A stretch of 63,273 bases of DNA, filler included, from Folioceros fuciformis (taxonomy: Eukaryota): the NCBI GenBank assembly GCA_049999805.1. It is 8 parts of 8 records of this genome, joined end to end, with 100 filler letters (N's around TTAATTAATTAA, not from the genome) between each part and the next. Parts side by side here need not be neighbours in the genome. Positions count along the whole stretch, not along the records: positions 18,916 to 28,682 come from JBNGIO010004663.1; 7 more parts are not named here. One strand, written 5' to 3'. Made by a program: the position numbers and the translations under genes. Shown piece by piece: positions 20,180-25,825 of the stretch (position 1 is its first letter; the number at the start of each line of letters is the position of its first letter). The notes beneath the pieces are model-generated. The model was not told the origin of the DNA. It saw only the letters and a list, made by a program, of their open reading frames with translations, and did not search any database.

Positions 20180-20569
20180 ATGAAGCTGATTAGAGGGAGC
20201 AACATCTCAACCCCTATTGTCCCCAAGCTGCAGACGGTTGGCAGTTGGAATGGTGGACGTGCGTATGACGTGAGGTGACGCTTGTGGAGCCACAATTCCA
20301 CCCCATATGGAGGACAAAGATTTGAGGGACATTGAAACGTTGTAACTTGGAATGTCGCCTGAGTGACCATGGCATTGGAGGGTGCTGGCGGTGACAATGC
20401 TTTGCCCGTAGTTTCTCGTCGGGCATTTGATGTATGCAGTTAATTTGTTCACCGAGGTTGAGAGCTAGGGAAAGGGACCCTGAATGCGCCTTCTGTGAGA
20501 GGGAAAACTTACAGGCGGAGGCGGAAACTAGTTTACACTGCATGAAGGATTGAGGATGATTTGCTAATA

Positions 20570-23500
20570 TTACAGTTCTAGTATGGTTTCTCCAGACCTC
20601 TCCCCCTGAAGTTGTGCACCATCTGGCGGCCTGCGAGAGTCGGCATATCGCAGCCGGAGATTGGCTGGGAGATGTGTTGCGGCCAGGTCATCCTTAGCCG
20701 CATCGCCACCCTTGAGAGATAGAGATTGCTTCCAGACCTCAGCTGCCTCGTTTCTTTGCTTTGTTCCGTGCCGGAAGAAGAAAACGATGACTGTCATATC
20801 ATCGTGATAGTCTCTTCGTTGACCTCCAGACATCTGAAGCAGCTCGCTGTATGCCACCTCGTGCTTCCTTGCTGCCTTCTGTAAAGCGTATTTAACCAGG
20901 AAACGCGCAATGTCCTGCGAGACATCCCACGAATCGTTTGGAACGAGAGAACTACGCTGGGGGCCGATTGCTTAAGAAACGTTCATCAGATAACATTGTT
21001 TACCTTTCTGCCGTGTGCCGAAACGATTTCCACAGCTTCTTCGTTGCTCACATATTCCCACAGTCCGTCAGATGCCAGGATGAGGAACTCGTCATTACCT
21101 GAAAGCATGTGAAGTGACACGGATGGCTCGGAGGACACTAACGGCGGTACAAACGGCCCCGGAACACGAAATCTGGAAAACAATGGATCTCGGTTGAATT
21201 CCAGGTGTTTCATGAACAAATCTCCAAAGCAGTGAGTCACCTGANNNNNNNNNNNNNNNNNNNNNNNNNNNNNNNNNNNNNNNNNNNNNNNNNNNNNNNN
21301 NNNNNNNNNNNNNNNNNNNNNNNNNNNNNNNNNNNNNNNNNNNNGCACTCCACTGACCTGGATTTTTCCTTTTATCCTCCAGATCCCATTCTTCTCCCAG
21401 ACCACATTCCCACCACAGCAAGCTTCATGCGCTCGACTATAAGCCTCCCTGACATCAGGCATGTTCACGTTGTCATCCTGTGACAGCTGAACGGGATATA
21501 GGCCGTCCTTCCCCCTACAACCCAGGACCGCTCTGCTATCTCCCAGGTTTGCAATGAACAAGGTCTCTCCTGTTATAATGGCTACGATGGAACAAGAGCC
21601 AACAGTGGCTAAGTGCGGAGATTTCTGAAAAGCATCTCGAACAATGTCTATAAACTGTCCCTCTGTGGTTGCAAATGCAGCCTTTATCCCTTCCACAGAC
21701 ACCTTTCCATGATTTTGCACAAAGCGACCTGCCCCACAGCCAGTAATCAATCAGGACCCACTGCTGCATCGTTGTTGTACGACAGGCTGCATCACTAGTC
21801 ATCAATCAGTCGAACAAACCAACAATGAAATAGTACACAAGTGACATACTTTTTAAATTATCGTACAGATGATCCTTCAAATATTTTGATGCTTCAGTAC
21901 CCCCATGACCGTCATGGATTCCCAGATACACACCACTGAGAGTTGCCTCCACCTTACATCACCCATTGACTACGGTCAGCAAAGACTTTCATGGCGACTA
22001 CCTCAACACTTCAAACCTGCAAAGCTTGTTTGTTTAACCTGCATATGGTCTCACCTCACCAGTGTCCTCCATGAAATAATTGGCTTCATACATTGCAAAT
22101 GAGAATTCCCCAAAAGCTGTTCGCTTTAGGGACTTGTGCCAGAGTGAGCTTTTCAAAGACCTGTCTCCTTTGCGAGGTAGCAGGACAGCTTTGATTCGAC
22201 GAAATTGTCCCACAGAAAATATCTTCCTATCTCTCACAAAATCAATACGACTCCGGCGGTCCCGGCGGAGAAACTCAGGTGTGTCCTTGTCCTCACCGCC
22301 ATGAAATGCTAAGTCCAAGCCAGCCTGCAATAACAATAACTCTGGATGAAGTCTGCGAAAATCTGAGGCAAAGCTCTCCAGCACATGCACCCTCATGGAC
22401 TGTGTCGAACATCACCTCTTCTTCCTGCCGGTCCACCCGTAAAGCATTGAAGAAGGCAAGAAGATAGAATAATACAAAACTTGATATCCCAACCCACAGA
22501 TACACTGTGAATAATCCTACTATCTGGATGCCAGGAATAGGTAATCAGGATATATTATATCATTCCACAGCCTCCCACAACGGAAACGAAACTGTCGGGA
22601 ATCTTGCCTGGACGAACAACTGGCTGAACCCACCACCATGGAACAGCCCGTAACTTTTGGGTTGCAGAATGTTGAAGGACTTGCGGATATTGTAAGGAGT
22701 GGAGAACAAGCCGACTGCCAGACCTCCCCAAGTTCCACAGAACAGGTGTACAGGAGCAGCCATAACCACGTCATCTATCTGGCACTTTATCATGACCTTG
22801 ACTCCCGCAAGATAGAAAAAACCAGATATCACACCTGCACACATCATGCCAACCAGAACAGACGTAATTACGCATGATAACAAGGTAGCAAGAGACTTAC
22901 TTTGATGCATCACCAACCCAATTTCCACCCGGACAATGAAGGGAGTAACGGAGCTCACCTATGATAGCGGCACCATATGGCTGCACGACACTGCTTGTGG
23001 CACATGCTGCTACCAATCCACCGATCACGGCATTGAACACATCCTCGGGTTTTGATTTTTTGTTGACCGTTTGGGTAAAAACGTAGACCACAAACCCCGA
23101 GAATGCTGCTGTTAACGTAGTGTTCTGAGCCACTCGTGCCAGCTCTACTGTCCAGACTACATTTTGAGCCTGTATAATGTCAATAGGACCTGTGTTGAAG
23201 CCAAAAAAGCTAACCCACAGCAACACTGTGCCTGCTGCCACCAAAGCCTGCGGGACGCATCAGCACATGTCAATGTTTGGTCAACAGCCAGAAGAGAAAG
23301 CATGCGAATCCTCCACAACCACAACGTTGTCGCTGACTGACTCAAGGGGAACAAGCATCCATACAAATTGCCAAAGGAAGGATTCAGAAAACCTAAACAC
23401 CAGTGAGATTGATTCACGAACCACGGAGTGACTTTGCATAGGTACAGGATTCCCCTCAATGTCAAATCTGCCAATTCTAGGACCCACCATCCACGCCCCT

Positions 23501-24366
23501 ACAAGTGCAGTCACTCCCCCGGTGACATGGACCACCATGGATCCCGCATTGTCTAACACGCCATCTGTACCAAGTATTCTTGCCGAGCTGTTGGCACTCA
23601 GCAGGCCCTCTTTCGACCATATTAGATGAGCTGTTATTGGGTAGATGAAGGAACTCAAGAAGAAGCTGGTACACGTGTCCCAATGTGTCAGAAACTTAAA
23701 CACCCACAAGACTGGCTTTGGAAGGCTGCGAAGAAGAGCAAATTGCAAGCCTCGGAGCTAGTTGAAACCCCAGGAAAGGAACTCGCCACGAGAGGAGAAC
23801 CCGTACCTGTAGATCAGATAAGCACGCAGTTGCGTCCGTTCAGCAATAGATCCAGCAATGATATTCGCACACGTTGTTGCGAAAGCCAGCTCAAAGAAAA
23901 ACTTGAGCTGCTCACGATCACCGGAAAACGCAGGCTTGCCGTCTGAATACTTCCAACCTACAACCTCGTTCCCGTACCCAAACCCGATGGCATACCCAAA
24001 CAGCCAGAACGAAATGACACAAATGCACATATCCAGCACATTCTTGACCATAATGTTGCGGGTGTTCTTCACACGCACAGTGCCAGCTTCTATCAAAGAG
24101 AATCCGACCTGCAGCAAAATCCAACCACAACCCGCAATGTTAACAACACAACAAGACCACGACACTCTCAGCTCAATCCAGCAGCACAGCGACCATACCT
24201 GCATAAGGAAGACGAAAAAAGCCGCCTGGAGTTTCCACAGGTCAGCAGAGATCCTCCCATTCTCAGAATTACTCCTCGCCAGAAAATCCAGTACGGACGA
24301 AATGTTGGCAATTTGGCTCTGAATTTCTCCAATTACAGAAGGATCCAGCTCCTCCCCCGGATCCAT
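20570..24366 (-). CDS. AMT1-family ammonium transporter fused in frame to a clade-D PP2C protein phosphatase; 11 exons, 887 aa
   Basis: Exons 24366-24199, 24108-23807, 23665-23422, 23247-22959, 22834-22608, 22523-22416, 22324-22055, 21952-21850, 21728-21358, 21240-21004, 20914-20570 total 2664 nt with consistent phases. AMT motifs: FLMQVGFSLIEAGTVRVKN, GSIAERT, DNAGSMVVH, GPRIGRF, FGFN, DD..AAPVH, LRV..EEEAGLD..HGG. PP2C motifs: GEFSFA..ANYFMED, DGHGG, ANLGDSRAVLG, WRIKGKIQ, LASDGLWE, HDDMTVIV. Confidence 0.85.
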
Positions 24367-25825
24367 ACCTCGATTCTCACACCCCAAACCTGGACTCTGG
24401 CAGCCAATCCTTGACGTGCACCTTCGTCAGACCTCCCTGTACGGACTCGGCCGCGTTTGTTCCCACACAGCTCATCCCCCTCAATTTCAGGCCAGGAGCC
24501 TCCATTCCACTCACTCCCAACCCGCAACCCCAGACTCCGTCGCCCCCTCGCCTCCGATGCCGACGGTCTCGCGATCGGCCCTCCCGAGCTCCAATTCTTC
24601 ACCTCAAATTGCGGGTCCGACCACCTCNNNNNNNNNNNNNNNNNNNNNNNNNNNNNNNNNNNNNNNNNNNNNNNNNNNNNNNNNNNNNNNNNNNNNNNNN
24701 NNNNNNNNNNNNNNNNNNNNNNNNNNNGGCCTATACGATCCCAGCCAAGGCCCAGCCTCCAACGACCTCCTCGGCGGCAGCAAGGCCTGCTGCCGCCCTC
24801 TGCTGCTCTGCGACCCCCAGAACTAGCACTTCCCATGAAAGGACTGCCAAAGTTAGTGGAGACGTAGCCTTGGTGTAATCGACTCGATTCGACTCGACTC
24901 CAATTCGAGGGTAGCATGAGACGAGGTCTTACCGGAGACGTCTCAAGGCCGGGGATCGGAATTCGGGCCTTTGACGTACACGATGTCGGCTGCTGCGCCT
25001 CGGAGATGGCGGAGCCAGGGGAGTTGCCAGGTACTGTATGTACTTTCGGGACGCGGGACGCGGGTGCATCCAATCGTTGGCGTGTTGTTATCGGGCTCGG
25101 GGCCTGACGCGACTGTCCGGGGAAGCAGTGACAGTGCGGGGAAGGGATGTGTGAAATAGACTGCCATCACGGGAAATTGCTGCACGAAATTTAAACACAT
25201 GCTACCCACTCAAGACTAGCCATTTGATTAGGAATCTGATAAGGAATTAATAACTGGCCAAAAAGGACAAGCACTTACACCAAAGGGGCGGGCAAGTTGC
25301 AACCGCAAACTTCGGTGAAGCTGCTCACGTCACCTGGCCCAAAGAGAGCAGCTTCAATGCTTCAGTGATTCGGTGAGGAGGCAACACATGGCACCTGTTG
25401 TACAAGTACCGAATGTGTCACAAAGCTCAAGTCACACTAGGTTCAAATGGGGAAGCTAGAAAACCACGATATCCTTAAACGTGACTCTAAACTCGAACTG
25501 TACAGACCGTACTACAACATGAAGCTCACATGCATCTCGGGCAGCGCTGTCCGACCCCCATGCACCGCAACCATGAGCTTGTCGAGAAGTGGTGTCGTCG
25601 TCGTGACCCTACGGCAGCTGGGTTGCATGGAGGGAGGCCAGTCCGATTCTTGGTCCTGTTGTGGAATAGAGGAGGAGGTCTTCAACACTGAGCACTGGGG
25701 TAGAAAGAGAGAACGCGGTTGGAGAGGCAATGACCCAGGGCCCGAGTGCCCAACCATGCATCTTGAGGTGGCGAGGTGTTCGGTGCGACGTCACATCCGT
25801 TCTCTTGCTGCCGTTGTAGTGAGAG

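What the first reader, a model, noticed from the sequence alone, without database searches (positions are those of the whole stretch)
23180..23900. The AMT half keeps its gates but has altered ammonium-binding residues
Seen, by motif alignment to E. coli AmtB numbering: F103/F107 (FELAF), W148 (LIWS), D160, the twin His H168 (VVH) and H318 (APVH), and F215 are retained. The WFGFNAGS motif reads FFGFNTGP (W212->F, S219->P), DFAG reads DNAG, and FQ reads FE. Established: S219 lines the S1 recruitment site and W212 lines the pore. Inference: reduced or altered transport, which fits a sensor role rather than decay because the frame and splice sites are intact.
Basis: partly seen in the sequence, partly recalled or inferred. 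Interest (0 to 1): 0.72.

Follow-up and report, generated by a model that had tools for sequence, protein, structure and literature searches.

The report
Ammonium transporter fused to a phosphatase
This is an expressed plant-lineage gene that joins an ammonium-transporter domain to a protein phosphatase, a fusion already named in print, whose ammonium-binding pocket is changed in a conserved, family-specific way that hints at signalling but does not prove it.

Summary
An 11-exon gene lies on the minus strand at 20570-24366. It encodes 887 aa: an Amt domain (about residues 40-456), a variable linker, then a PP2C phosphatase. Intron-less contigs in four public runs carry all ten junctions, so both halves sit on one spliced molecule.

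The gene is an orthologue of the streptophyte AMPC (AMT-PP2C.D) fusion, named in 2024 and found in Marchantia, Chara, Klebsormidium and zygnematophytes.

Against E. coli AmtB:
- **Kept:** the twin His, the Phe gate, W148 and D160.
W212F, F161N, S219P, Q104E.
- **Also changed:** W146L, T273C, C276S.

F212, N161 and C273 mark nearly all 19 AMPC proteins. They are rare in 232 other AMT1-type domains (17, 1 and 15). P219 occurs only in the window and two Marchantia species, and once elsewhere. So this is neither drift nor an ordinary AMT1 trait.

These residues do not carry the sensor inference:
- Solved receptor Amts keep them, as do 31 of 31 other signalling-fused Amts.
- S219A and W212A mutants still transport.
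- The F212/C273 pair also occurs in unfused Amts.

A transceptor role remains the best guess (about 0.5). It rests on the conserved fusion, the tight constraint on the Amt half, and the lack of the AMT1 T460 switch.

The parts
20570..24366 (-). Whole coding region of the AMT-PP2C (AMPC-type) gene: 11 exons, 887 codons plus stop
   Evidence: Collinear tblastn with Marchantia P0001. Exon model. All ten junctions are seen in intron-less contigs of runs X1, X2, X3 and X17.
24199..24366 (-). Exon 1 (M1-Q56): variable N-terminus and the start of TM1
23807..24108 (-). Exon 2. Holds the N1/N2-pocket residues E63, K78, N79, D82, M83, N138, A141 and Y153, plus FFFELAF (F103, E104, F107 equivalents)
   Evidence: Alignment to Sd-Amt1 chain 8qj3..
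23422..23665 (-). Exon 3. Holds AHLIWS (L171 = W146 equivalent, W173 = W148) and LDNAGSMVVHVTGG (D195, N196, H203)
   Evidence: The exon end at 23422 comes from the joint.
22959..23247 (-). Exon 4. Holds WVSFFGFNTGP (F252 = W212, F255 = F215, P259 = S219), N310 (Sd-Amt1 N269 equivalent), C320 (= T273) and S323 (= C276)
22608..22834 (-). Exon 5. Holds AAPVHLF (H364 = H318). It is followed by a GC-AG intron (22524-22607)
   Evidence: The joint with ends CT..GC on the plus strand is.
22416..22523 (-). Exon 6: last transmembrane helix and the start of the conserved cytosolic tail (RVDRQEEE)
22055..22324 (-). Exon 7. Holds the end of the Amt tail (GLDLAFHGG, with A452 at the position of AtAMT1;1 T460), the variable linker (about residues 457-515) and the start of the PP2C half
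   Evidence: The linker has pLDDT below 50 in the model of the Marchantia orthologue.
20570..21952 (-). Exons 8-11 (21850-21952, 21358-21728, 21004-21240, 20570-20914): PP2C phosphatase domain with GIHDGHGG, NLGDSRA, ASDGLWE and HDDMTVIV, then a variable C-tail
   Evidence: Pfam PF00481, E = 2.3e-27. PDB alignment to pyruvate dehydrogenase phosphatase 1..
21245..21344 (.). Run of N inside intron 9 (21241-21357). It does not touch the coding sequence
   Evidence: The 117-base skip is bridged by the X1 contig.

Best explanation
SHOWN. The window carries an expressed orthologue of the streptophyte AMPC family. This is one polypeptide with an N-terminal AMT1-type ammonium-transporter domain and a C-terminal clade-D-like PP2C phosphatase, joined by a variable, probably disordered linker.

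The Amt half keeps the conduction core: W148, the Phe gate F107/F215, D160 and the twin His. It also keeps most residues of the internal N1/N2 pocket. Its outer binding region carries a remodelling that is fixed across the family (W146L, F161N, W212F, T273C, C276S). The land-plant members add S219P.

INFERRED. The Amt half still admits ammonium at least as far as the twin His. It serves as the ammonium-responsive membrane module of a transceptor or receptor. That module places and probably modulates the PP2C.D phosphatase at the plasma membrane, acting on other phosphoproteins (candidates: the H+-ATPase or AMT1 tails). It is not a bulk-uptake transporter that regulates itself. The changed S1/S2 residues most likely retune affinity, selectivity or dwell time rather than abolish binding.
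For: - **Domains and gene model.** PF00909 matches exons 2-6 and PF00481 matches the PP2C part. The gene is collinear over its full length with Marchantia P0001. A 4876-base contig of run X1 has no mismatches and carries all ten junctions. The same junctions appear in X2, X3 and X17 at 90-95% identity.
- **Family.** Fused relatives occur in Marchantia polymorpha and M. paleacea, Chara, Klebsormidium, Closterium and Mesotaenium. They form one clade with support 100, and the window is sister to Marchantia with support 99. The architecture is named AMPC and placed in PP2C.D in PMC11665922 (passages).
- **Constraint.** Mean pairwise identity is 0.61 for the Amt half, 0.57 for the PP2C half and 0.25 for the linker. 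56 of 70 family-wide conserved Amt columns are kept, including W148, D160, H168, F215 and H318.
- **Clade-specific remodelling.**
  - F212 in 19 of 19 AMPC, against 17 of 232 others.
  - N161 in 18 of 19, against 1 of 232.
  - C273 in 17 of 19, against 15 of 232.
  - P219 in 3 of 19 (window and two Marchantia species), against 1 of 232.
- **N1/N2 pocket.** The Q, E, K, N, D, Y and N269 equivalents are present.
- **Not self-regulation at the known site.** The T460-equivalent is A (15: 14 database members and the window) or V (3) in the 18 AMPC proteins that have a residue there. It is S or T in 16 of 18 plant-like AMT1-type domains.
- **Precedent.** Ks-Amt5 and Sd-Amt1 are receptor Amts. They are the best sequence and Foldseek matches.
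Against: - No functional datum exists for any AMPC protein in what I could search.
- The linker is variable in length (about 60-130 aa). It is predicted disordered in the model of the Marchantia orthologue (residues 448-497, pLDDT below 50). Sd-Amt1 has a helical HAMP connector instead, so rigid conformational coupling is not supported.
- The published receptor signature is only partly met. The [FT] position is M83, T104 is N138 and S107 is A141. A at the S107 position is family-wide in the crown group.
- The N1/N2 residues that are kept are generic. E, K, N, D, Y and N are present in 201-228 of 232 AMT1-type domains. Plant AMT1 transporters share the pocket without a demonstrated sensing switch (PMC13745463).
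- Homologous single substitutions (S219A, W212A) leave transport largely intact.
- F212/C273 occurs in unfused Amts that the tree places, weakly (support 85), as sister to AMPC. That pair may therefore predate the fusion.
- The top structural rank of the receptor Amts may only reflect shared subfamily. TM-scores are alike (0.90 for Sd-Amt1, 0.92 for Af-Amt1), and AtAMT1;1 is not in the PDB copy searched.
Confidence: 0.5

Rival explanations
1. A working ammonium transporter with a tethered phosphatase. The Amt half transports normally or nearly so. The odd residues are a tolerated or compensated variant state. The PP2C half acts locally, either on the protein itself (the autoregulation idea in the 2024 paper) or on neighbours, without being gated by ammonium.
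For: - The whole conduction core is kept.
- S219A raises AmtB activity. AtAMT1;1 W255A and S262A lose activity only modestly or moderately.
- W212 and T273 covary across the family: 13 F/C, 206 W/T, 4 F/T and 2 W/C, Fisher p = 3.8e-16. This looks like a compensated pair, and it occurs in unfused Amts such as amphioxus P0065.
- The flexible linker suits tethering.
- Autoregulation was proposed in PMC11665922.
Against: - The canonical AMT1 phospho-switch position is A or V in all 18 AMPC proteins that have a residue there, so self-dephosphorylation at that site is excluded.
- N161 and P219 are each seen in only 1 of 232 other AMT1-type domains. They are not an ordinary transporter state.
- The long stem branch of the clade (0.56) suggests a change of function after the fusion.
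Confidence: 0.33
2. The Amt half is an inert membrane anchor (a pseudo-transporter). It only holds the PP2C.D phosphatase at the membrane, and its binding site has begun to erode.
For: - S1 and S2 residues are changed.
- Vascular plants do without the Amt half altogether (PMC11665922).
Against: - An anchor would not need W148, D160, the Phe gate and the twin His, which the AMPC proteins keep.
- It would not need to be more conserved than the catalytic half (0.61 against 0.57).
- The changes are the same in lineages from Klebsormidium to liverworts. They are fixed, not eroding.
Confidence: 0.08
3. An artefact or a dead gene: two neighbouring genes wrongly joined, an assembly error around the N runs, or a pseudogene.
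For: - Two runs of N lie near or inside the locus (21245-21344 and 24629-24727).
- No run is on record as RNA.
Against: - Single contigs in four runs of four studies span all exons with every intron removed at GT-AG or GC-AG borders.
- The N run lies inside intron 9 and is bridged.
- The frame is open for 887 codons.
- The same fusion exists in at least six other genera.
Confidence: 0.02

Closest known systems
AMPC (AMT-PP2C) isoforms of PP2C.D in charophytes and bryophytes (PNAS 2024, PMC11665922; passages read)
   Same: Same architecture and the same clade. There is an N-terminal PF00909 domain and a C-terminal PP2C. The window protein is 69% (Amt half) and 64% (PP2C half) identical to the Marchantia member and groups with it.
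   Different: Nothing categorical: this is a further orthologue. The residue-level remodelling of the Amt pocket and the missing T460-type site were not in the passages I could read. That paper's SI Appendix figures could not be read.
Bacterial ammonium receptors Sd-Amt1 (8QJ3/8QJ4) and Ks-Amt5 (6EU6)
   Same: An Amt module with a C-terminal signalling enzyme. They are the best PDB sequence matches and the best Foldseek matches (TM 0.90). The Q22, E29, K44, N45, D48, Y119 and N269 equivalents are present.
   Different: - The transducer is a PP2C, not a kinase or a cyclase.
- The linker is variable and disordered, not a HAMP domain.
- The receptors keep W212, S219 and F161, while this family does not.
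- Signature positions F/T49, T104 and S107 read M, N and A here.
Plant AMT1 transporters (AtAMT1;1; PMC13745463, passages read)
   Same: Same AMT1-type subfamily with the N1/N2-like pocket. Same conserved cytosolic tail motif ending in HGG.
   Different: - It is not in the green AMT1 group of the tree.
- It has E63 where AtAMT1;1 has C64.
- It has A452 where T460 lies.
- It has F252, P259 and N196 where AMT1 has W255, S262 and a Phe.
- It carries a phosphatase.
E. coli AmtB (reference for numbering)
   Same: Same fold (TM 0.85-0.87). F103, F107, W148, D160, H168, F215 and H318 are kept.
   Different: About 28% identity. The differences are Q104E, F161N, W212F, S219P and T273C. There is no GlnK partner domain. 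It belongs to a different subfamily.
Single-domain PP2C.D phosphatases of land plants (nearest unfused hits are named PP2C 42, 43 and 60)
   Same: The PP2C half is 39-47% identical to them. The catalytic motifs are present.
   Different: They lack the Amt half. That these names mean clade D is partly my recollection; the clade assignment of AMPC itself is from PMC11665922.

Membership tests
Amt/Mep/Rh superfamily (PF00909) | Significant match to the family profile over the whole domain | tested here: met
   Five exon pieces match PF00909 positions 11-393 of 399. Four score E = 1e-14 to 1e-21. Exon 6 scores E = 1.5e-4, 21 bits, just under the 23.2 cut-off on its own.
Amt/Mep/Rh superfamily (PF00909) | Twin His, Phe gate and the conserved Asp (H168, H318, F107, F215, D160) | tested here: met
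   H203, H364, F132, F255 and D195, by alignment with AmtB.
Amt/Mep/Rh superfamily (PF00909) | Canonical S1 and S2 residues W148, S219 and W212 | tested here: not met
   W173 is kept, but S219 is P259 and W212 is F252. This is a departure within the family, not a reason to exclude it.
Amt/Mep/Rh superfamily (PF00909) | Amt fold | tested here: met
   Tested on the Marchantia orthologue P0001, not on the window protein itself. The Amt half has pLDDT mostly above 90. TM 0.85-0.92 to solved Amts.
AMPC (AMT-PP2C.D fusion of streptophytes) | Amt and PP2C in one polypeptide, Amt first | tested here: met
   One spliced contig spans both halves.
AMPC (AMT-PP2C.D fusion of streptophytes) | Groups with the known fused proteins, not with free Amts | tested here: met
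   FastTree of 120 Amt domains: the fused clade has support 100, and the window plus Marchantia have support 99. Rows P0014 and P0057 were left out as partial.
AMPC (AMT-PP2C.D fusion of streptophytes) | PP2C half of clade D | tested here: inconclusive
   The nearest unfused hits are angiosperm PP2C 42, 43 and 60. I built no PP2C tree. The clade D assignment is taken from PMC11665922.
Ammonium receptors (AmR) as defined by Pflueger et al. 2024 | N1/N2 signature Q-X6-E-X15-N-X2-D-[FT]-X54-60-T-X2-[ST] | tested here: not met
   Q56, E63, N79 and D82 fit. The [FT] position is M83, T is N138 and [ST] is A141. Marchantia has T, T and A.
Ammonium receptors (AmR) as defined by Pflueger et al. 2024 | Fused cytoplasmic transducer module | tested here: met
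   A PP2C domain, but of a kind not described for AmRs in the passages read ('phosphatase' occurs 0 times).
Ammonium receptors (AmR) as defined by Pflueger et al. 2024 | Ammonium binding without full translocation; ligand-dependent switch | not testable with these tools
   Needs electrophysiology or structures with and without ammonium.
Plant AMT1 transporters | Membership of the green AMT1 clade | tested here: not met
   Chara P0027, Chlorokybus P0028 and Volvox P0042 group elsewhere in the tree.
Plant AMT1 transporters | Thr or Ser at the C-terminal phospho-switch (AtAMT1;1 T460) | tested here: not met
   A452 in the window. The position is A or V in all 18 AMPC proteins that have a residue there, and S or T in 16 of 18 plant-like AMT1-type domains. 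The mapping rests on the alignment column and on equal spacing from the second pore His (88 residues; numbering). It is an inference.

The most novel reading that the evidence does not exclude
AMPC is the plant lineage's own ammonium receptor. Occupancy of the remodelled Amt pocket would set the activity or reach of a membrane-held PP2C.D phosphatase. [quoted passage not shown] The land-plant S219P change, together with G/A217T, would then be a retuning of what the receptor recognises or at what concentration.
Probability: 0.15. Interest if true: 0.8.

Novelty: new member of a known kind. Interest (0 to 1): 0.45.

Why it matters
How plants perceive ammonium, as distinct from taking it up, is unresolved. 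The 2026 AtAMT1;1 structure paper states that transceptor function is not demonstrated.

AMPC proteins are the only plant-lineage Amts I found hard-wired to a signalling enzyme. They occur in Marchantia, which is genetically tractable.

This work adds three testable points to the published naming of the fusion:
1. The Amt pocket carries a fixed signature specific to the family: L146, N161, F212, C273 and S276.
2. Liverworts and the window's organism add P219.
3. The AMT1 T460-type switch is absent. This argues against the published autoregulation idea at that site.

If the Amt half proves to be an ordinary transporter, the F212/C273 pair and P219 still show how much of the 'invariant' S1/S2 sites can be replaced.

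Tried and rejected
- **Whole-genome search for paralogous AMT1 genes:** no genome is held for this window. 'Ordinary AMT1s of the lineage' were therefore judged from other green-lineage proteins, not from the same organism.
- **Earlier notes of the scan:** none.
- **Expression:** no RNA holder is listed. All runs are labelled 'RNA? (a guess)'. I rely on the intron-less form of the contigs, not on the label. No DNA run was laid as a control.
- **P219, F212 and N161 codons in organisms B-D:** This stays open.
- **Do characterised insect Amts carry F212/C273?** The search and the passages of PMC5905399 do not mention position 212. They name two conserved threonines in AeAmt2, which may include the T273 equivalent. 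The thread was dropped.
- **Trimer prediction:** three Amt halves exceed the 1000-residue limit of the complex tool, so it was not run.
- **The fold:** The tool gives no coordinates, so contacts among N161, F212, C273 and P219 could not be measured.
- **Structural comparison with AtAMT1;1:** it is not in the PDB copy, which runs to April 2026.
- **PNAS 2024 supplements:** only Dataset S3 (bacterial AMT-SpoIIE list) matched my terms. The SI Appendix figures S4 and S5, which may list species or alignments, could not be read.
- **My first guess that the PP2C half is POL/PLL-like (clade C):** rejected in favour of clade D.
- **Literature on the fusion:** searches found only PMC11665922. Subscription journals are not covered.
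Full report
**What is there**

The region is eukaryotic and the gene lies on the minus strand. Stop-to-stop frames between 20570 and 24426 carry pieces of an ammonium-transporter domain, followed by a PP2C phosphatase. Pfam places PF00909 positions 11-393 on five successive pieces and PF00481 on 20986-21750.

A tblastn of the Marchantia polymorpha protein P0001 (875 aa, PF00909 + PF00481) is collinear with the window over its whole length. I built an 11-exon model. Contigs from public runs then tested it.
- Run X1 holds one 4876-base contig with no mismatch that covers every exon with all ten introns removed.
- Runs X2, X3 and X17 (three other coded organisms, 90-95% identity) show the same joints.
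- Nine introns are GT-AG. Intron 5 (22524-22607) is GC-AG.
- The joint at 23246/23421 moved the end of exon 3 to 23422, adding one codon.

The final product is 887 aa. The runs are only guessed to be RNA. What they show is the intron-less joined form spanning both halves. The run of N at 21245-21344 lies inside intron 9 and is bridged.

**The observation**

I aligned the spliced protein with 120, and then 250, Amt domains and with E. coli AmtB read from NC_000913.

| AmtB position | Window residue | Status |
|---|---|---|
| F103 | F128 | kept |
| F107 | F132 | kept |
| W148 | W173 | kept |
| D160 | D195 | kept |
| H168 | H203 | kept |
| F215 | F255 | kept |
| H318 | H364 | kept |
| Q104 | E129 | changed |
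| F161 | N196 | changed |
| W212 | F252 | changed |
| S219 | P259 | changed |

Only H318 (22746-22748) lies outside the stated coordinates.

That S219, W148 and F107 form the S1 site, and that F215, W212 and H168 form the S2 site, is stated in the review PMC10433425 (sections 9 and 11, passages).

**Is it more than chance?**

I split the 250 database domains into 18 fused (AMPC) proteins and 232 other AMT1-type domains; the window makes 19 AMPC. Among the 232 others:

| Position | Residues in the 232 other domains |
|---|---|
| 161 | F 200, Y 16, N 1 |
| 212 | W 214, F 17, Y 1 |
| 219 | S 211, A 12, P 1 |
| 273 | T 211, C 15, S 6 |

In the AMPC set:
- F212 is present in 19 of 19.
- N161 is present in 18 of 19 (L in Klebsormidium P0012).
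- C273 is present in 17 of 19 (G in Chara P0122, S in P0012).
- P219 is present only in the window, M. polymorpha and M. paleacea. All 14 algal members scored keep S.
- E104 is peculiar to the window. That column is variable anyway.

Of the 70 columns that are at least 85% conserved in the 232, AMPC keeps 56. The clade-level departures are W146 to L/I/V/M, F161N, W212F, T273C, C276S and L266I. S219P is added in land plants. T113N and G211S occur in the window alone. The changes are therefore few, fixed for a very long time, and concentrated around the outer binding sites. That is the opposite of decay.

**What family it is**

Fused relatives were found in several ways.
- **By word search.** Marchantia, Mesotaenium, several Closterium strains, two Klebsormidium paralogues and two unnamed Logan transcripts turned up.
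- **By exhaustive HMMER search.** This scan of 1.84 billion representatives added Chara braunii.
- **From the Marchantia cluster.** M. paleacea sits in the same cluster as M. polymorpha.
- **Land plants.** No land plant other than Marchantia appeared in any of these searches.

A FastTree of 120 Amt domains (P0014 and P0057 left out as partial) makes the fused proteins one clade (support 100). Its branching follows streptophyte phylogeny: Klebsormidium first, then window + Marchantia (99) beside the zygnematophytes.

The fusion is in print. PMC11665922 (PNAS 2024; passages read) names it AMPC and places it in PP2C clade D. The paper reports it in charophytes and bryophytes and its loss in vascular plants. 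It suggests that the phosphatase may autoregulate the transporter. My three literature searches for the fusion found no other paper.

**The phosphatase half and the linker**

The PP2C motifs GIHDGHGG, NLGDSRA, ASDGLWE and HDDMTVIV are present. The nearest solved chain is pyruvate dehydrogenase phosphatase 1, which explains the name given to the Marchantia protein. The nearest unfused proteins are angiosperm PP2C 42, 43 and 60.

Across 12 AMPC orthologues, mean pairwise identity is:
- 0.61 in the Amt half,
- 0.57 in the PP2C half,
- 0.25 in the linker,
- 0.23 at both ends.

The linker varies from roughly 60 to 130 residues. In an AlphaFold2 model of the Marchantia orthologue (mean pLDDT 87.6, pTM 0.62) both domains are confident and residues 448-497 fall below 50.

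**Does the pattern mean 'sensor'?**

The closest solved proteins by sequence and by Foldseek are indeed the two ammonium receptors, Sd-Amt1 and Ks-Amt5. But TM-scores are alike for receptors and transporters (0.90 for Sd-Amt1, 0.92 for Af-Amt1). The rank probably reflects a shared subfamily, which also contains plant AMT1 transporters (PMC11152129).

- Those receptors keep the Trp/Ser vestibule, the Phe gate and the twin His.
- All 31 Amts that are fused to MCP, GGDEF, kinase or cyclase modules keep W212, S219 and T273.
- Altered S1/S2 residues are therefore not a known mark of sensing.
- AmtB S219A is more active than wild type. AtAMT1;1 S262A and W175A are moderately reduced, and W255A (= W212A) is modestly reduced.
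- W212 and T273 covary strongly: W/T 206, F/C 13, F/T 4, W/C 2, Fisher p = 3.8e-16. The F/C state occurs in unfused Amts such as amphioxus 'ammonium transporter 1'. The tree places these, weakly (85), next to AMPC. That pair may be older than the fusion and mutually compensating.

**The published receptor signature**

Pflueger et al. propose Q-X6-E-X15-N-X2-D-[FT]-X54-60-T-X2-[ST]. By the HMMER alignment to 8qj3 the window has:
- Q56, E63, K78, N79, D82 and Y153, which fit;
- N310 at the Asn-269 position, which also fits;
- M83 for [FT], N138 for T104 and A141 for S107, which do not fit.

Marchantia has T, T and A at those three positions. The signature is thus only partly met. The parts that are met are generic to the subfamily (201-228 of 232).

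**What then supports signalling?**

1. The fusion has been kept from Klebsormidium to liverworts, with the Amt half under at least as much constraint as the enzyme.
2. A mere anchor would not need W148, D160, the Phe gate and the twin His.
3. The remodelling is clade-specific and fixed, and the stem branch is long (0.56).
4. The position of the AMT1 phospho-switch is not phosphorylatable.
   - It is A (14 database members and the window) or V (3) in the 18 AMPC proteins with a residue there. It is S or T in 16 of 18 plant-like AMT1-type domains.
   - The window's A452 lies 88 residues after the second pore His, as T460 does after H372 in AtAMT1;1 (numbering).
   - This mapping is an inference. 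It argues against self-regulation at the known site and for substrates elsewhere.

The disordered linker argues against rigid coupling of the Sd-Amt1 kind. If the phosphatase is modulated, it is more likely through the conserved cytosolic tail and loops of the Amt trimer, or simply by placement.

**Verdict**

- The gene is a new orthologue of a family already named.
- Its altered pocket is real, family-specific and not an ordinary AMT1 trait.
- The step from these residues to 'sensor' is not carried by what is known of receptor Amts or of the equivalent mutants.

I put a transceptor or receptor role at about 0.5, a working transporter with a tethered phosphatase at about 0.33, an inert anchor at about 0.08, and an artefact at about 0.02.

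Noticed in passing
proteins P0125-P0135, P0143, P0168; not in the window: Long eukaryote-like proteins (1500-2800 aa) hold two Amt domains in tandem, followed by a guanylate/adenylate cyclase, a cNMP-binding domain, an ion-channel domain or a protein kinase. Of the 20 long multi-domain proteins I checked (these among them), 15 keep F161, W212, S219 and T273. Amt-signalling fusions seem widespread in eukaryotes.
   Followed up: partly
window 22524-22607 (minus strand): Intron 5 of the gene has a GC donor (GCAAGA) instead of GT. The joint is seen in contigs of all four runs laid.
   Followed up: yes
window 22307-22309 (A452): The position that corresponds to the AMT1 phospho-switch T460 is Ala in the window. 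It is A or V in all 18 AMPC proteins that have a residue there. This bears on the autoregulation idea published for this family.
   Followed up: partly
Amt family at large: AmtB positions 212 and 273 covary across 232 AMT1-type domains: W/T 206, F/C 13, F/T 4, W/C 2. This suggests direct contact or compensation between these pore residues.
   Followed up: partly
window 21245-21344 and 24629-24727: Two 100-base-class runs of N. The first is inside intron 9. The second is about 260 bases upstream of the start codon, so part of the promoter or 5' leader is not readable.
   Followed up: no
window, beyond 20500 and beyond 24450: The X1 contig runs 1581 bases past position 20500 on the 3' side of the gene and 477 bases past 24450 on the 5' side. 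This means long untranslated regions, or a contig that reaches a neighbouring feature. I did not examine it.
   Followed up: no
P0123 and P0298 (Closterium sp. NIES-65): A 1003-aa protein with only a PP2C by Pfam and a 461-aa Amt-only protein of the AMPC type are both listed with a longest contig of 879057 bases. They may be one AMPC gene split by annotation.
   Followed up: no
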